Positions 2,614 through 64,000 of a stretch of 64,000 nucleotides of DNA are shown piece after piece (position 1 is the stretch's first letter; each line of letters starts with the position of its first letter). Source of the DNA: a virus; the IMG/VR virus record IMGVR_UViG_3300028920_002953, positions 7,848 to 71,847 of that record; one strand, 5' to 3'. The notes beneath the pieces are model-generated. The model was not told the origin of the DNA. It worked only from the letters and a program-made list of their open reading frames with translations, and did not search any database. The position numbers were made by a program, and so were the translations under genes.

Positions 2614-3441
2614 ATGTCATTCAAAACAGTTTATAATGCCGTTTATGATCAGTTGCTCGCAGATACAACCCTTATCAGTTATGTTAAGGCCAGTGATTTT
2701 GTTAGGGGTTTCAAGGAAGTATTACCTGCGAAAAAATATATGATTATCTTTGAACCCGGACAGGAAACAGAAGTCACAAAACGGCAGGATGTGCAACAGG
2801 TTCTCGAAATCCAATATGAAATTCAGTTATACTGCCGATTGCTTTTAACTTCCAGTAAAGTAGAATCTGCCATTCTCGGTAATACAAGCAATAAAGGCTT
2901 GTTAGATTTTGTTGACGATGTAAAGGCAGCTATTAGGAAGGACATGAGTTTTTCCTATAATAACTTTGGACGGTCACTATCGGGGGAGAACGCCGCTGCT
3001 TCATTCGATCTGACCAGTTCAAACCGGTATCTAACCGTGAGTATTGATGGCAATACACCAACGGGATATGATGCCATTGACTGTGGTTCATCCACATTGG
3101 CCGGTGCGGACGTGGCAGTTAACATCCAAAATGCTTTGAGAGCATTGGGGAGGTATGCCGGTGACGGCTATTACGAAGCGACCTGCACCTTTAACTCGGT
3201 GAACAACCAGTTTACCATTAACTCAGAAAACATTGGCCCAAAGGCGACAGTAGAGGTAAGTGCTGGTGCCACTGATGATGCTTCGACGGTGCTTGGTTTT
3301 GATACACCAACGGAGTACAGTGGCACTAACATTATCAGAACGCAAATCGAATCGGTTACAGTGGAAAACTCAGCCTTTCCAGTTAGGTATCGCATGCTTC
3401 CACTATTAGTGACCGAAGAAACTCTTATAGGAGGACAATAA
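2614..3441 (+). CDS. tail terminator-like protein with an inserted beta domain
   Basis: N-terminus (VYNAVYDQLLADTTL...) and position just before the tail tube gene. Confidence 0.5.
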   Translation: MSFKTVYNAVYDQLLADTTLISYVKASDFVRGFKEVLPAKKYMIIFEPGQETEVTKRQDVQQVLEIQYEIQLYCRLLLTSSKVESAILGNTSNKGLLDFVDDVKAAIRKDMSFSYNNFGRSLSGENAAASFDLTSSNRYLTVSIDGNTPTGYDAIDCGSSTLAGADVAVNIQNALRALGRYAGDGYYEATCTFNSVNNQFTINSENIGPKATVEVSAGATDDASTVLGFDTPTEYSGTNIIRTQIESVTVENSAFPVRYRMLPLLVTEETLIGGQ

Positions 3442-3443
3442 AT

Positions 3444-4478
3444 ATGGGTAGAAAAACTGGTGCAAATGCAAGTGTCCAAATCGAACTCGGGAGCGTGTCT
3501 TATCCGATGGCAGCATTGTCTTCGGTAAGCTCTCCTGCGTCTGAGGTAAACAAGAAGTTTCTTACTCAGGCTGAATACATCTCTGACCTTGCCGGTATCC
3601 AAGCCGAGGTGAGACTGGATGGTGTTATTTCCGGTTTCGCCTTAACTCCGGGGTCCGGTTTCAATGAAGTGGACTATTCCGCTGGTTCCCTGTATATCAA
3701 GGGTCAACTGGTTGAAGTTGAAGCAGGAACCATTTCCAACATTACACGGCCGACCAGTGTGGGTGAAGTACTTGTAACCGCATTGACCGTGAATGCGTCC
3801 GGTACGGTAAGTGCGACGCCCAATACCGAAGGTGCCACAAGTACGACCCGTGGTTCTGCTGGTGGGCCTCCGTTCTTGCCGGTGGATGAAGTGCTTATTG
3901 GCTATATTACCGCCACGTACTACGAAGGTTCTGCCTCCGGTGAAAAAGTGCTTACCGTTGGTGAAATCGACTCCTACACCAAAGAGTATGCGGCCATTCC
4001 TTCCGCCAAAGTCATTTTCCATGATGAGGATCAGGATTATGGTTGTATCGAACTGGCAAATGTACTTCCGGAGATTCATGCTGCAACTGCTGCCGGTCCC
4101 GGCACCGCTGTTCGCAATGTCTATGCGTCTTACTACGAGCCGGAATTTGAGGAAGTGCCGGACGCAAAAGACTTCTCCTTTGACGAGGATGTGTCCACTT
4201 ACAAATCCAAGGCATACAAGGATGCTTCCGAGGAAACCGCACTTGGCACACCTTCGTGGTCTGGTTCCTTTGATGCGTACTTTTCCACTGTTGAGGATAT
4301 CCTCAACTTGGTTAAAAACAGCAAGCGTTGGGTAAAACACTTCCCCGATGCTGACCTGACGCCTCATTGGTCGGGCATGTGTATTGTCAAGGTGTCTCGT
4401 GAAACACCGGTTGAAAATAACATGATGGCGAGCGTTACCCTTGAAGGATCGGGTAAACTCTATCCGAAATCTGCGTAA
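3444..4478 (+). CDS. major tail tube protein (siphoviral, TP901-1-like C-terminal part)
   Basis: C-terminal DFSFDEDVSTY...SWSGSFDAYF...WSG...SVTLEGSGKL pattern of tail-tube folds; strong RBS; precedes chaperones and TMP. Confidence 0.75.
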   Translation: MGRKTGANASVQIELGSVSYPMAALSSVSSPASEVNKKFLTQAEYISDLAGIQAEVRLDGVISGFALTPGSGFNEVDYSAGSLYIKGQLVEVEAGTISNITRPTSVGEVLVTALTVNASGTVSATPNTEGATSTTRGSAGGPPFLPVDEVLIGYITATYYEGSASGEKVLTVGEIDSYTKEYAAIPSAKVIFHDEDQDYGCIELANVLPEIHAATAAGPGTAVRNVYASYYEPEFEEVPDAKDFSFDEDVSTYKSKAYKDASEETALGTPSWSGSFDAYFSTVEDILNLVKNSKRWVKHFPDADLTPHWSGMCIVKVSRETPVENNMMASVTLEGSGKLYPKSA

Positions 4479-55533: not shown

Positions 55534-56180
55534 ATGCGTTTGTAATTCCTTGGGAGTAGTTTGTTGTTGTGCTGTATTATACCACTTTTTAATAAGAATT
55601 TCACATCCTGAAATGGGTCTTTATAGTCAAGTATTTGAATGAGCATATGGCTGTTCGCACTATCCAGAGCCGCCTTAGACCGTATACGGCAAATAGATTT
55701 GTACCTTGATACAAAGTTAGCTATGAATTTGTCGCCTTTTGCTTTTCGCAGTGATCCCTTGATATTGTTACGTTTCTTTAAACGTTTGATGTTCTCCCTA
55801 AACGGTGGCGTAATGAAACACATTATCAAACCTTGTGGTTTTTCACCTAATTCCATTTGAACGCCCTGTAATCTTTTGGAAAAATCAAGCCAGCGATCAT
55901 AAGAGTGCGATATAAGCAACCCCTCGAATATCACTGTGGGCCTCACCTGCAAAGCCTTGACAATAGCGGATTCAACATAACTTATTTTCTTGATTGCATC
56001 AACACCACCAAAGTTGCTACCTTCCCTGTACGGGCCGATGATAGCGCAGTCCGTTGAATAATGCCCAACTACACCTTCGGAAATGGTCAAGGGTGGTGAA
56101 AATACTTGGTACTTCATTAGCTCTCTAATGATACTGGTTTTGCCGCTTCCCGTTGTGCCACGTATGTTTATGACATTCAT
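55530..56180 (-). CDS. P-loop nucleotide kinase
   Basis: INIRGTTGSGKT Walker A; GPY..G..FGGVD; VIFEGL. Confidence 0.8.
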   Translation of the reverse strand: MNVINIRGTTGSGKTSIIRELMKYQVFSPPLTISEGVVGHYSTDCAIIGPYREGSNFGGVDAIKKISYVESAIVKALQVRPTVIFEGLLISHSYDRWLDFSKRLQGVQMELGEKPQGLIMCFITPPFRENIKRLKKRNNIKGSLRKAKGDKFIANFVSRYKSICRIRSKAALDSANSHMLIQILDYKDPFQDVKFLLKSGIIQHNNKLLPRNYKRI

Positions 56181-61898: not shown

Positions 61899-62909
61899 TT
61901 AGTCTTCCTCAACCACAAATACTGCATCACCCTCAGCACCGCTGGATGCATGGCGCTGTACGATGTTAGCACACTTGGCAACCTTACGGGCAATGGTGCG
62001 CTGTACAAAACCGTAGTAGGACAGGGGTTCTTTCACATTACCCTTGGCCTTGGCAACCATTGTAGCCAGAGACTTCATGGTGGCACCATCTTCCTCACCC
62101 TCGGCCACTGCCATATACAATTCAGCCGGGAGGGTGTTCTTGCGGAGACCCTTGGGAAGTTCCACATCGGGTTCTTTCTTGGTGGTCTTTTTGGTGCTGC
62201 CACGACGTGTGGTTTTCTTGGTAGATTTGCCAGTGTCTTTCTCTGCCGCACCCATCTTTTTGGCAACGATGCGTTTCAGACGTTTCAGCGGAAACCCTTC
62301 CTGACGTTCGGTCAGTTTGATGTCGTTCTCATCGCAGTATTCAAGGATTTCGTCAACGTCATCACAGGCTTCGAGATCAAACTCATCGCCTTCATCATCA
62401 TCCTCGTCATCGGCGCCGCCACCTTCTTCAACAAACTCAAGGATGGCGTCAACCACATCATCGAGATTCTTACGGGTCGGAGTAATGTCGATGTCAACGT
62501 CATTGTCCTTGATGTACTTTTTGATCTGGCGCAGATTCATATCGGCCAGTTCTTCTTCAAGGGAATCGAGGTCAACGTCACCGTCTTCCTCATCATCTTC
62601 ATCTTCATCATCTTCTTCGTCGTCTTCGTCCTCATCTTTCGCCGCTGCCTTTTTACGACCACGCTTTGTAGTTTTCTTTTCTTCCTGCTCCTCTTCGTCG
62701 CCGTCCTCATCGATCAGACCTTCATAGTAATCGATGATCGAATCAGGGACGTCGTCGATCTTGCCAGCGTCATCGATGTCCTCAATGGCAGAAATGAAAT
62801 CCTCCATGAGGTCCTCAACATCGCCCGTTACCGCAACCTTGTCGGTAAGCTTTTTTCTGTTGAGGGCTTTGATGTTCTTGACGAGTGCTGCCTTTGTTAC
62901 TTTTGCCAT
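61899..62909 (-). CDS. highly acidic multi-module protein
   Basis: ATG 62909 after AAAAGGAG; Asp/Glu tracts, basic patches and small helical modules. Confidence 0.8.
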   Translation of the reverse strand: MAKVTKAALVKNIKALNRKKLTDKVAVTGDVEDLMEDFISAIEDIDDAGKIDDVPDSIIDYYEGLIDEDGDEEEQEEKKTTKRGRKKAAAKDEDEDDEEDDEDEDDEEDGDVDLDSLEEELADMNLRQIKKYIKDNDVDIDITPTRKNLDDVVDAILEFVEEGGGADDEDDDEGDEFDLEACDDVDEILEYCDENDIKLTERQEGFPLKRLKRIVAKKMGAAEKDTGKSTKKTTRRGSTKKTTKKEPDVELPKGLRKNTLPAELYMAVAEGEEDGATMKSLATMVAKAKGNVKEPLSYYGFVQRTIARKVAKCANIVQRHASSGAEGDAVFVVEED

Positions 62910-62934
62910 AACCTTTTCTCCTTTTAAAGAGGTT

Positions 62935-62957
62935 AATAAAATGCCCACCATTGGGCA
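62935..62957 (-). terminator. putative intrinsic terminator closing the upstream RNA
   Basis: UGCCCA-AUGG-UGGGCA hairpin followed by UUUUAUU. Confidence 0.55.
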
Positions 62958-63130
62958 ACATTCCATAAGGAACTAATTGGTAGGTCGGGGCATGATGGCA
63001 ATCACACACTTAATAAAAGGAGGCAGTTGGTGTGCATGTAGCAAGCCGATTAGCTACGCAGGGGAGGCACCCCCTAACCAACTACAGATTATAAGTTACC
63101 CCGACCTACCAATTAGTCCCTTATGGGAAC
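62935..63130 (-). ncRNA. putative ~195-nt structured non-coding RNA of unknown family
   Basis: 28-bp closing helix (63099-63126/62963-62990), 9-bp inner helix and branched hairpins; non-Watson-Crick positions in the main stems are G-U only on the minus strand. Confidence 0.7.
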
Positions 63131-63136
63131 TGGTGT

Positions 63137-63147
63137 ATTATAGCACA
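63137..63147 (-). promoter_or_regulatory. sigma70-type extended -10 promoter
   Basis: TGTGCTATAAT on the minus strand; predicted start about 63130, at the foot of the RNA helix; no consensus -35. Confidence 0.7.
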
Positions 63148-63163
63148 TTAGATTCATTTTTTA

Positions 63164-64000
63164 CTAAGTGGCAAGATATTTTTTATTTAGGGTGAAATAC
63201 TTGCGTTCCCTGTTATTTTCAAAGATTCTTGTGCAGTCTAAGATAGGTTGACTTACCTCCAACCTCTGCGTGATAATAACCTCGTGACGTTCATTGAATG
63301 ACATGTGCCTATGAAACAAGCAATTGACTCGTGCTATATTAAAATCTTTTTCGTAGTCCGTTTGATTCAATGCAATGCGTATATCCAAATGGCCGTCCTT
63401 TGTCTTACTTTCACTGGTTGACATTTTATCAAGTGAATATTGGGAGCGGCCCATTTTGTTAGCTTGATCTGCATTCAATACCAAACAGTTAAGCTCACCA
63501 GCTAACTTACTGGCATTCTTCCATTTGTTATCAACGTCTAATCTAATCTCTGGATTCTCTTGTGCCATAATATCAAGATAGTCAAGTATGATAATATCAG
63601 GCACCCACTTAGTCCTGTCAATGTATCTTAGGATATACGCCCGGACTTCTTCAAAAGTGACTGAAAACCTTGGAAAACATTTCACACGATAGTTATCCAA
63701 TTGTGCAAATCGTTCATGCCTCTTGACGGCCCTTTTAACTATGCGTGGTGAAACTGTTTTTAAAACTGAATGATCGTACCATATGGTAGGCTGAAAGCGT
63801 TTGCTTGCTGTTGCATTGACTCGGACTTTTGGATTGTCTTTGCATATGTCACATGGAACCCACTTTGTATGATCTTCAAAGTATACTTGCTGTCCGGGGT
63901 TTTCAAATAAACGCTTTTTCTTTTCCCGAGCTTTGCGAAATGTAGATTCGCAAGTACCATGTTGATTGTTTTCGCAATCAAGAACTGGATAGATGTTATC
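63164..64000 (-). CDS. DnaB-like replicative helicase, 5' partial
   Basis: Frame is open from the window edge; PDIIILDYLDIM, LNCLV..ADQAN, SES..K...D..IALN motifs. Confidence 0.85.
   Translation of the reverse strand, partial: DNIYPVLDCENNQHGTCESTFRKAREKKKRLFENPGQQVYFEDHTKWVPCDICKDNPKVRVNATASKRFQPTIWYDHSVLKTVSPRIVKRAVKRHERFAQLDNYRVKCFPRFSVTFEEVRAYILRYIDRTKWVPDIIILDYLDIMAQENPEIRLDVDNKWKNASKLAGELNCLVLNADQANKMGRSQYSLDKMSTSESKTKDGHLDIRIALNQTDYEKDFNIARVNCLFHRHMSFNERHEVIITQRLEVSQPILDCTRIFENNRERKYFTLNKKYLAT

What the first reader, a model, noticed from the sequence alone, without database searches (positions are those of the whole stretch)
62935..63147. Stand-alone ~195-nt structured RNA with its own promoter and terminator
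Seen on the minus strand: extended -10 TGTGCTATAAT, then directly a 28-bp helix (63099-63126 with 62963-62990), an internal region, a 9-bp helix (63077-63085 with 63023-63031) and a three-way junction with two hairpins. A side hairpin repeats the UGCC loop of one of them, and a hairpin plus UUUUAUU follows. The non-Watson-Crick positions in these stems are G-U on the minus strand and A-C on the plus strand, which points to selection on RNA. The 5' internal strand contains UAUAAU. It is not a tRNA. Inference: an undescribed phage ncRNA. Its size and rod-with-bubble shape recall 6S RNA (RNA polymerase decoy); an attenuating leader is the alternative.
Basis: partly seen in the sequence, partly recalled or inferred. 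Interest (0 to 1): 0.85.

Follow-up and report, generated by a model that had tools for sequence, protein, structure and literature searches.

The report
Hairpin element inserted in phage leader
A 164-base hairpin-forming element sits inside the otherwise conserved leader in front of a phage replication operon; it is real and unlike any described RNA family, but it is probably a lineage-specific leader insertion and not an independent 6S-like RNA gene.

Summary
These are an extended -10 (63137-63147, minus strand), a 28-bp inverted repeat (63099-63126 with 62963-62990) around a 108-nt core, and a hairpin with a U-run (62935-62957). Only the inverted repeat exceeds chance. The core alone folds no better than 17 of 200 shuffles, and the G-U strand argument is not significant.

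Twelve related phage lineages keep the same gene order: helicase, slot, acidic protein, clamp, clamp loader. Eleven of them (12 of 13 lineages, window included) carry the same extended -10 a few bases after the helicase stop. Seven of 13 lineages (window included) have a G+C hairpin 31-43 nt before the start codon. What is new in this phage is a 164-nt insertion between them.

No relative, viral contig or genome holds a copy, and Rfam, including its 6S models, gives nothing. My best reading (0.4) is a leader-embedded RNA whose long duplex is an RNase III-type processing site. A trans-acting ~195-nt RNA and a purely DNA-level element remain open. The scan has not seen this element on other DNA. 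Transcription, processing and conservation are all untested.

The parts
63137..63147 (-). Extended -10 promoter (TGTGCTATAAT). It is orthologous to the promoter found in the same slot of related phages. The predicted transcript start is about 63130.
   Evidence: one of 3 TGNTATAAT sites in the window, all on the minus strand; the site at 55576-55584 shares the longer GTGnTATAATACA form and lies about 40 nt before a gene start; 12 of 13 lineages have such a site in the slot, at 5.4 per kb against 0.67 per kb outside the slots.
63099..63126 (-). 5' arm of the 28-bp inverted repeat. It begins about 4 nt after the predicted transcript start.
62991..63098 (-). 108-nt core. In the MFE fold it holds a 9-bp helix (63077-63085/63023-63031), two hairpins, a side hairpin (62992-63005), and a mostly unpaired CUCCUUUUA (63014-63022) complementary to the next gene's ribosome-binding site.
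   Evidence: for the fold; the fold is not better than shuffles (z = -1.49). for the 9-nt complement: 46 of 5000 shuffles reach it, and its first five bases have unpaired probability 0.88-1.0.
62963..62990 (-). 3' arm of the inverted repeat. The single non-Watson-Crick position (62971 with 63118) is G-U on the minus strand.
62935..62957 (-). G+C hairpin (62942-62957) followed by UUUUAUU (62935-62941). The hairpin is a conserved leader feature. The U-run is specific to this phage.
   Evidence: terminator-like; -9.2 kcal/mol; hairpin in 7 of 13 lineages, ending 31-43 nt before the AUG; no U-run directly after the stem in the six other hairpin-bearing lineages.
62907..62931 (-). Ribosome-binding site held in a small local hairpin (CUCUU 62927-62931 with AGGAG 62918-62922), plus the start codon 62907-62909 of the acidic-protein gene (61899-62909).
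   Evidence: Similar SD-sequestering mini-hairpins were seen by eye in the leaders of about six relatives.

Best explanation
The element is a lineage-specific 164-nt insertion (28-bp terminal inverted repeat plus a 108-nt core) into the conserved 5' leader of the operon that encodes the acidic protein, the sliding clamp and the clamp loader. The phage has a T4-like replisome.

Proposed mechanism:
1. The element is transcribed from the operon's own conserved extended -10 promoter. Because no terminator lies between the helicase stop and that promoter, it is probably also transcribed by read-through from the helicase gene.
2. In the RNA the two arms form a near-perfect 28-bp duplex starting about 4 nt from the 5' end.
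3. Such a duplex is a substrate for host RNase III. Cleavage would detach the core and leave an mRNA that begins just before the conserved G+C hairpin and the SD hairpin. This would set the message's 5' end, its stability and its translation.
4. The hairpin plus U-run may also stop a fraction of transcripts, giving a ~195-nt by-product RNA.

Shown: the sequence features, the synteny, the orthology of promoter and hairpin, and the absence of the element from relatives.
Inferred: transcription, RNase III cleavage and any effect on expression.
For: Synteny. The order helicase, slot, acidic protein, clamp, gp44-like loader is kept in all related loci that reach far enough.

Promoter. A TGnTATAAT-type site is present in 12 of 13 lineages, 9 of them exact. 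It starts 5-23 nt after the helicase stop in 9 of those 12 (window, L029, L030: nt 19), 8-fold enriched over the rest of the loci and aligned in 8 of 8 leaders.

Leader hairpin. A G+C hairpin ends 31-43 nt before the AUG in 7 of 13 lineages, with different stem sequences (GCCC/GGGC, GUGGC/GCCAC, GGCGU/GCGCC, UGUGG/CCACA).

Insertion. In the alignment the window differs from short-leader relatives by one large insertion between promoter and hairpin.

Strand and geometry. Both flanking genes and the downstream clamp and loader genes are on the minus strand. The duplex begins about 10 nt after the -10.

Duplex quality. 28 bp with one G-U, the best inverted repeat in 64 kb.

Known precedent. Hairpins of 26-bp inverted repeats in 5' leaders are RNase III substrates in Neisseria CREE elements (PMC2649163, abstract and passages).

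Reality. The element is identical in contigs of two other studies.
Against: - There is no direct evidence of transcription or cleavage.
- The host and its RNase III are unknown, and the 71.8-kb record encodes no RNase III.
- Relatives do without any long duplex in this leader, so processing is not a conserved need.
- The U-run after the hairpin occurs only in this phage (1 of 7 hairpin-bearing lineages). That fits a terminated, separate RNA better.
- The core shows no significant folding, so nothing shows that the excised part matters.
- No homologue exists, so there is no covariation test.
- A near-perfect repeat can equally be young or maintained at the DNA level.
Confidence: 0.4

Rival explanations
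1. Stand-alone, trans-acting ~195-nt phage RNA, running from 63130 to the U-run at 62935. It would be one of several RNA 'cargo' genes that this phage group places just behind the slot promoter. It would act through its long duplex and/or its exposed CCUCC-type loop, for example as a decoy for a host dsRNA-recognising enzyme or as a regulator of ribosome-binding sites.
For: - The hairpin is followed by UUUUAUU only in this phage.
- Sister lineages carry ORF-less structured cargo right after the same promoter. L005 has tRNA-like modules (Rfam tRNA 28.8 bits against a gathering score of 29; folds). L039 has a tRNA-like RNA with a T-arm and an ACCA end (z = -3.3).
- The 9-nt complement to the ribosome-binding site is mostly unpaired in the ensemble, and 46 of 5000 shuffles reach it.
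Against: - The promoter and hairpin are ancestral leader parts. If termination were efficient, the operon would lose this conserved promoter.
- The core fold is not significant.
- No homologue was found anywhere.
- No covariation can be tested.
Confidence: 0.2
2. A DNA-level feature without an RNA function of its own. Candidates are the remnant of a miniature inverted-repeat insertion, a recent inverted duplication, or a pair of protein-binding sites. The arm centres are 136 bp apart, about 13 helical turns, flanking the transcript start.
For: - Only the inverted repeat is beyond chance, and it is equally strong on both strands.
- Near-perfect arms suggest youth or sequence-level maintenance.
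- The size and layout (28-bp arms, 164 bp) match CREE-type elements (26-bp arms, 104-157 bp; PMC2649163).
- The slot is a hot spot for insertions: it ranges from 61 to about 760 nt among the 12 relatives (254 nt in the window), with unrelated contents.
Against: - The element is single-copy in the 71.8-kb record and absent from the 29-kb contig that overlaps the window-end helicase sequence (L004/L041).
- An 18-mer from the arm has 0 exact matches in the viral contigs and 0 in the genomes of 185,579 species.
- 0 of 61 Desulfobacteraceae genomes match.
- No target-site duplication is visible at the ends.
- The record holds no transposase-like serine or tyrosine recombinase.
Confidence: 0.27
3. 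A 6S-like decoy of RNA polymerase.
For: The size is about 195 nt, and a UAUAAU lies in the 5' strand of the internal region.
Against: - No 6S family model matches, even at E<=10 on a 701-nt search or at gathering score.
- The fold is a perfect 28-bp helix closing a multi-branch core, not an irregular rod with a large central bubble and a terminal loop.
- The UAUAAU is largely paired in the MFE fold.
- The element is absent from every related lineage.
Confidence: 0.03
4. A ligand- or signal-responsive attenuator (riboswitch-like): the structured domain would decide between the terminator hairpin and read-through.
For: The order promoter, structured domain, hairpin plus U-run, ribosome-binding site is the classical layout. 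The core forms a three-way junction in the MFE fold.
Against: - A 28-bp closing helix (whole element -82 kcal/mol) cannot plausibly open to exchange strands with a 6-bp terminator.
- No Rfam riboswitch matches.
- The core fold is not significant.
- The hairpin exists without the domain in relatives.
Confidence: 0.05

Closest known systems
Correia repeat enclosed elements (CREE / nemis) of Neisseria
   Same: Both have inverted repeats of 26-28 bp enclosing a core, total size 104-157 bp against 164 bp here. Both often lie 5' of genes and are co-transcribed. In CREE the hairpin in the mRNA is bound or cut by RNase III and changes expression (PMC2649163, abstract and passages).
   Different: CREE occur in more than 100 copies per genome with target duplication. 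This element is single-copy, shows no duplication at its ends, and has no other copy in any collection searched. It sits in a phage, and its host is unknown.
RNase III processing hairpins in phage early mRNAs (T7 R sites, lambda N leader); recalled, not read here
   Same: A long duplex within a leader or intercistronic region of a phage transcript, where cleavage defines mRNA ends and can change translation.
   Different: Those sites are roughly 40-60-nt hairpins with internal bubbles. Here a perfect 28-bp helix closes a 108-nt branched core, and cleavage is untested.
PeSL cassettes of T4-type phages
   Same: A strong sigma-70-type promoter combined with a stem-loop, sitting at points where cargo is inserted, deleted or swapped (PMC2839356 passages; PMC4122927 abstract). 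In L005 the slot promoter is duplicated around RNA cargo.
   Different: PeSLs are repeated many times per genome, and the stem-loop precedes the promoter as a terminator. Here the motif is not repeated (3 TGNTATAAT sites in 64 kb against 3.26 expected), and the hairpin follows the promoter.
6S RNA
   Same: Size, and a -10-like hexamer in an internal strand.
   Different: No model match, a different architecture, and no conservation.

Membership tests
6S RNA (Rfam 6S families) | Match to a 6S covariance model | tested here: not met
   No 6S hit at gathering score in the window and none at E<=10 in 62700-63400.
6S RNA (Rfam 6S families) | Irregular rod with a large central bubble, closing stem and terminal loop (definition recalled) | tested here: not met
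   The MFE and centroid folds show a perfect 28-bp helix closing a multi-branch core.
6S RNA (Rfam 6S families) | Binds RNA polymerase holoenzyme and templates product RNA | not testable with these tools
   Needs biochemistry.
Stand-alone sRNA gene | A promoter and an intrinsic terminator that serve the RNA alone | tested here: not met
   The promoter is orthologous to the operon promoter in 12 of 13 lineages. The hairpin is a leader feature in 7 of 13 lineages. Only the U-run is specific to this phage.
Stand-alone sRNA gene | A discrete transcript of the predicted size | not testable with these tools
   Only contigs of RNA runs were available, and they cannot show ends or levels.
MITE / CREE-like element | Terminal inverted repeats enclosing a short non-coding core | tested here: met
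   28-nt arms, 96% complementary, 108-nt core.
MITE / CREE-like element | Multiple copies in the genome or in host genomes | tested here: not met
   One copy in the record. None in the contig that overlaps the window-end helicase sequence (L004/L041). 0 exact 18-mer matches in viral contigs or genome contigs. 0 of 61 Desulfobacteraceae genomes. The host is unknown, so absence from the true host is not shown.
MITE / CREE-like element | Target-site duplication at the ends | tested here: not met
   The flanks just outside the arms share no direct repeat (read).
RNase III processing site | Uninterrupted duplex of about two helical turns or more in a transcript (definition recalled) | tested here: met
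   28 bp with one G-U, on the strand of both flanking genes and the downstream clamp and loader genes, downstream of a conserved promoter.
RNase III processing site | Cleavage by RNase III | not testable with these tools
   Needs an in vitro or in vivo assay.
tRNA / tRNA-like | Cloverleaf with a T-arm | tested here: not met
   ARAGORN finds 0 genes in the window. There is no tRNA-clan hit at E<=10. This differs from the cargo in L005 and L039.
PeSL cassette | Promoter plus stem-loop motif repeated across the genome | tested here: not met
   3 TGNTATAAT sites in 64 kb against 3.26 expected. The inverted repeat is unique.
Riboswitch / attenuator | Match to a known aptamer class, or mutually exclusive terminator and antiterminator pairing | tested here: inconclusive
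   No Rfam match. The 28-bp closing helix makes strand exchange implausible on energy grounds. Alternative pairings were not searched systematically.
Retron ncRNA / inverton | A partner enzyme nearby (reverse transcriptase; serine or tyrosine recombinase) | tested here: not met
   0 matches for PF00078, PF00239 and PF00589 in the 71.8-kb record. The record is not the whole genome.

The most novel reading that the evidence does not exclude
This phage group keeps a positionally fixed promoter between its helicase and clamp genes and uses the space behind it as a loading dock for unrelated ORF-less RNA cargo. Two sister lineages (L005, L039) carry tRNA-like modules without an anticodon arm. This phage carries a ~195-nt RNA with a perfect 28-bp duplex and an exposed anti-Shine-Dalgarno-like loop. 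On this reading the element is a trans-acting phage RNA of a new kind, for example a decoy for a host dsRNA-processing or dsRNA-sensing enzyme, or a sponge for ribosome-binding sites. It would be released by termination at the U-run that only this lineage has.
Probability: 0.15. Interest if true: 0.7.

Novelty: new variant of a known kind. Interest (0 to 1): 0.35.

Why it matters
If the long duplex is processed, this is a clean natural case of a phage rewiring the expression of its clamp and clamp-loader operon by dropping a hairpin element into a conserved leader. It comes with built-in controls, because sister phages have the same leader without the insertion.

The wider point may matter more.

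As it stands the element is one sequence without homologues, so its own weight is modest.

Tried and rejected
Homologue searches that found nothing:
- blastn against 50,697 phage records gave only 25-29-nt chance matches at E = 4.
- blastn and nhmmer against 22 related loci and blastn alone against 9 further loci gave nothing below E about 0.3.
- Five whole related records or genomes gave only 14-17-nt matches.
- The 29-kb contig that overlaps the window-end helicase sequence (L004/L041) has no match.
- 0 of 61 Desulfobacteraceae genomes match. That family was chosen only because one distant relative's contig is binned in such a MAG, so it is a weak host guess.
- An 18-mer from the arm has 0 exact matches in viral contigs and 0 in genome contigs. 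Exact-word scans miss diverged copies.
- The scan's own notes hold no look-alike on other DNA.

Closer relatives exist but their DNA could not be fetched. The two metagenome loci at 69% and 56% identity (L014, L015) end before the slot. No covariation test of the element was therefore possible, and I built no covariance model, because a single-sequence model would add little to BLAST.

RNA evidence. Two salt-marsh metatranscriptome runs (X14, X15) gave contigs only over 62161-62565, inside the acidic-protein gene, and none over the element. Contigs cannot show absence, ends or levels, and DNA can be present in such libraries. This counts neither for nor against transcription of the element. 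The DNA runs X5 and X6 showed no variant and no inverted form of the core, but contigs drop rare variants.

GC skew shows no turn at the element, so it gives no support for an origin.

A weak Rfam hit to freshwater-2 (18.9 bits against a gathering score of 49.9) covers the hairpin plus ribosome-binding site at 62907-62958. None of 12 related loci reaches any Rfam gathering score, so it was not pursued.

Rejected ideas:
- phi29 pRNA-like, Y RNA/YrlA-like, and retron ncRNA: no Rfam hits at E<=10, and no reverse transcriptase in the record.
- CRISPR-repeat mimic: the arm 18-mer occurs in no genome.
- Small ORFs in the core: only 6-11 codons, without a ribosome-binding site (read).

One literature search failed on a syntax error and was not repeated. 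Supplementary files of papers were not consulted.

Full report
**What is there**

On the minus strand, the 254 nt between the stop of a DnaB/gp41-like helicase gene (63164) and the start of an acidic 336-aa protein gene (62909) contain four features in order:
- an extended -10 (63137-63147);
- a 28-nt arm (63099-63126), a 108-nt core, and the complementary arm (62963-62990), with one G-U;
- a 6-bp G+C hairpin (62942-62957) followed by UUUUAUU;
- a strong ribosome-binding site.

The inverted repeat is the best in the 64-kb window. Contigs of two other studies carry it without a difference, so it is not an assembly artefact.

**What exceeds chance**

The 206-nt stretch folds far better than shuffles on both strands (z = -7.1 and -7.7). 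That only restates the inverted repeat.

The 108-nt core alone is unremarkable. It gives z = -1.49 on the minus strand, with 17 of 200 shuffles as good, and z = -0.28 on the plus strand.

The resulting 4.9 kcal/mol advantage of the minus strand is matched or exceeded by 16% of composition-matched shuffles. I take the strand from the genes, not from the pairs.

**Context**

The neighbours are a helicase (PHROG 19), the acidic protein (no Pfam family), a gp45-type clamp, a small protein, and a gp44-type clamp loader (PHROG 168, E = 4e-71).

The window is bases 7848-71847 of a 71.8-kb viral record. The same clamp protein also sits on a 113-kb contig. The nearest cultured phages are cyanomyoviruses at 37% identity or less in the clamp loader, so this is an uncultured lineage. 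Pieces of this stretch of its DNA, without a difference, lie in contigs of a marine-sediment run and a microbial-mat run.

**The comparative result that decides most of the question**

Clamp and helicase alignments brought in related loci from viral, metagenome and genome collections. After collapsing duplicates, I compared 12 lineages that cover the slot, plus the window. L042 and L025 were left out because they lack the acidic-protein gene or the slot. All 13 keep the order helicase, slot, acidic protein; where the locus reaches further, clamp and loader follow. Among the 12 relatives the slot varies from 61 to about 760 nt (254 nt in the window).

Promoter. Twelve of 13 lineages have a TGnTATAAT-type site in the slot. 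Nine are exact. The thirteenth, L011, has TG abutting TATAAT. The site starts 5-23 nt after the helicase stop in 9 of the 12 (nt 19 in the window, L029 and L030); in L005, L031 and L040 it lies further in. Its density is 5.4 per kb in the slots against 0.67 per kb elsewhere in the same loci, and it aligns in 8 of 8 leaders.

Hairpin. Seven of 13 lineages have a G+C hairpin ending 31-43 nt before the AUG, with stems that differ in sequence. Each hairpin alone is not rare: 17-26% of shuffles have one. It is the common position that carries the weight. After the hairpin, most leaders share a UAACC/AAUCC stretch, and about half hold the Shine-Dalgarno sequence in a small hairpin (read).

In the alignment, the window differs from the short-leader relatives by a single large insertion between promoter and hairpin. 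Only the U-run directly after the hairpin is peculiar to this phage (1 of 7 hairpin-bearing lineages).

**Is the element found anywhere else?**

No. It is single-copy in its record. It is absent from:
- the contig that overlaps the window-end helicase sequence (L004/L041);
- all related loci and five whole related records;
- 50,697 phage records;
- 61 genomes of a tentative host family.

At the level of an exact 18-mer of the arm, it is also absent from the viral contig collection and from the genomes of 185,579 species. The closer relatives that could settle conservation are known only as proteins, and their DNA could not be fetched.

**Known families**

Rfam gives nothing at gathering score in the window or in 12 related loci. 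At E<=10 the only real hit is a generic long-hairpin match to a microRNA precursor model. There is no 6S, Y RNA, pRNA, tmRNA, riboswitch or ribozyme model among the hits, and ARAGORN finds no tRNA. The record encodes no reverse transcriptase, RNase III, or serine or tyrosine recombinase.

The closest described thing is the Correia repeat enclosed element of Neisseria. It has 26-bp inverted repeats around a core, measures 104-157 bp, often lies 5' of genes, and its hairpin in the mRNA is an RNase III substrate (PMC2649163, abstract and passages). Membership fails on copy number and target duplication.

PeSL cassettes of T4-type phages (PMC2839356 passages; PMC4122927 abstract) resemble the slot's behaviour as an exchange point, but they are repeated motifs with the opposite order of parts.

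**How it most likely works**

Both flanking genes and the downstream clamp and loader genes are on the minus strand, a conserved promoter lies 10 nt upstream, and no terminator separates the element from the helicase gene. I therefore take transcription of the element as very likely (inference, about 0.85). The RNA then starts with a near-perfect 28-bp duplex about 4 nt from its 5' end.

From general knowledge (recalled, not read here), duplexes of two helical turns or more are cut by bacterial RNase III. Phage leaders such as those of T7 and lambda use such cuts to set mRNA ends and translation. I therefore commit, at 0.4, to a cis-acting leader element whose duplex is a processing site. The cut would release the core and leave the message beginning at the conserved hairpin.

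The phage-specific U-run, and the ORF-less RNA cargo found right behind the same promoter in sister lineages, keep a trans-acting ~195-nt RNA alive at 0.2. The core's CUCCUUUUA is mostly unpaired and perfectly complementary to the next gene's ribosome-binding site (46 of 5000 shuffles reach 9 nt). It could serve either reading, but relatives already sequester that site with a local hairpin.

A DNA-level origin without RNA function stays at about 0.27, because only the repeat itself is significant and it is nearly perfect. 6S-like action is very unlikely (0.03).

**Verdict**

The feature is real, undescribed, and without relatives, but it is not the stand-alone 6S-like gene proposed. It is best filed as a new variant of hairpin elements embedded in 5' leaders. 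Its interest is moderate, and it is raised somewhat by the finding that the slot carries different RNA cargo in different lineages.

Noticed in passing
L005:3337-4000 (+) (same in L006, L008, L013, L016): The equivalent slot of a sister lineage holds three tRNA-like modules. Each has a 7-10-bp end pairing and a canonical T-arm, but 50-150 nt stand where the anticodon arm should be. ARAGORN calls none. Rfam tRNA scores 28.8 bits against a gathering score of 29 for 3371-3479, with a 52-nt insert. The third module folds as a class-II-like cloverleaf without an anticodon loop (z = -2.8). Two modules follow identical copies of the slot promoter. They may be tRNA mimics.
   Followed up: partly
L039:3390-3565 (+) (similar contig in L043, binned in a Desulfobacteraceae MAG): Another lineage carries, behind the same promoter, a tRNA-like RNA with an acceptor stem, a T-arm, an encoded ACCA end, and a long arm of about 85 nt in place of the anticodon arm. 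The fold gives z = -3.3. Rfam sees only the T-arm. The MAG binning is the only, and weak, hint at a host.
   Followed up: partly
It is a second long structured intergenic region in the same replication module. I saw no clear sequence likeness to the element studied here.
   Followed up: partly
window 62907-62957 (-) and the leaders of L029, L030, L036, L021, L026, L011, L010: The acidic-protein gene has a conserved leader architecture across lineages: extended -10, a G+C hairpin with varying stem sequence, a UAACC/AAUCC stretch, and a small hairpin that pairs the Shine-Dalgarno sequence with a UCCU-type word just upstream. This could be a translational operator. The SD hairpins were judged by eye only.
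   Followed up: partly
window 55576-55584 (-): A second extended -10 shares the longer form GTGnTATAATACA with the one at 63137-63147. It lies about 40 nt before a gene start, which suggests a phage promoter class.
   Followed up: no
L010:3920-3945 (+): In this complete 87-kb relative, which has direct terminal repeats, the leader contains a strong Shine-Dalgarno sequence followed by a two-codon mini-ORF (Met-Glu-stop) upstream of the acidic-protein gene.
   Followed up: no
window 63164-64000 and L004/L041: The helicase gene runs off the window and record end. A 29-kb viral contig matches the first 73 residues of the helicase fragment at the window end at 100% and extends beyond them. The record is labelled provirus, yet it holds no integrase or resolvase family match.
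   Followed up: no
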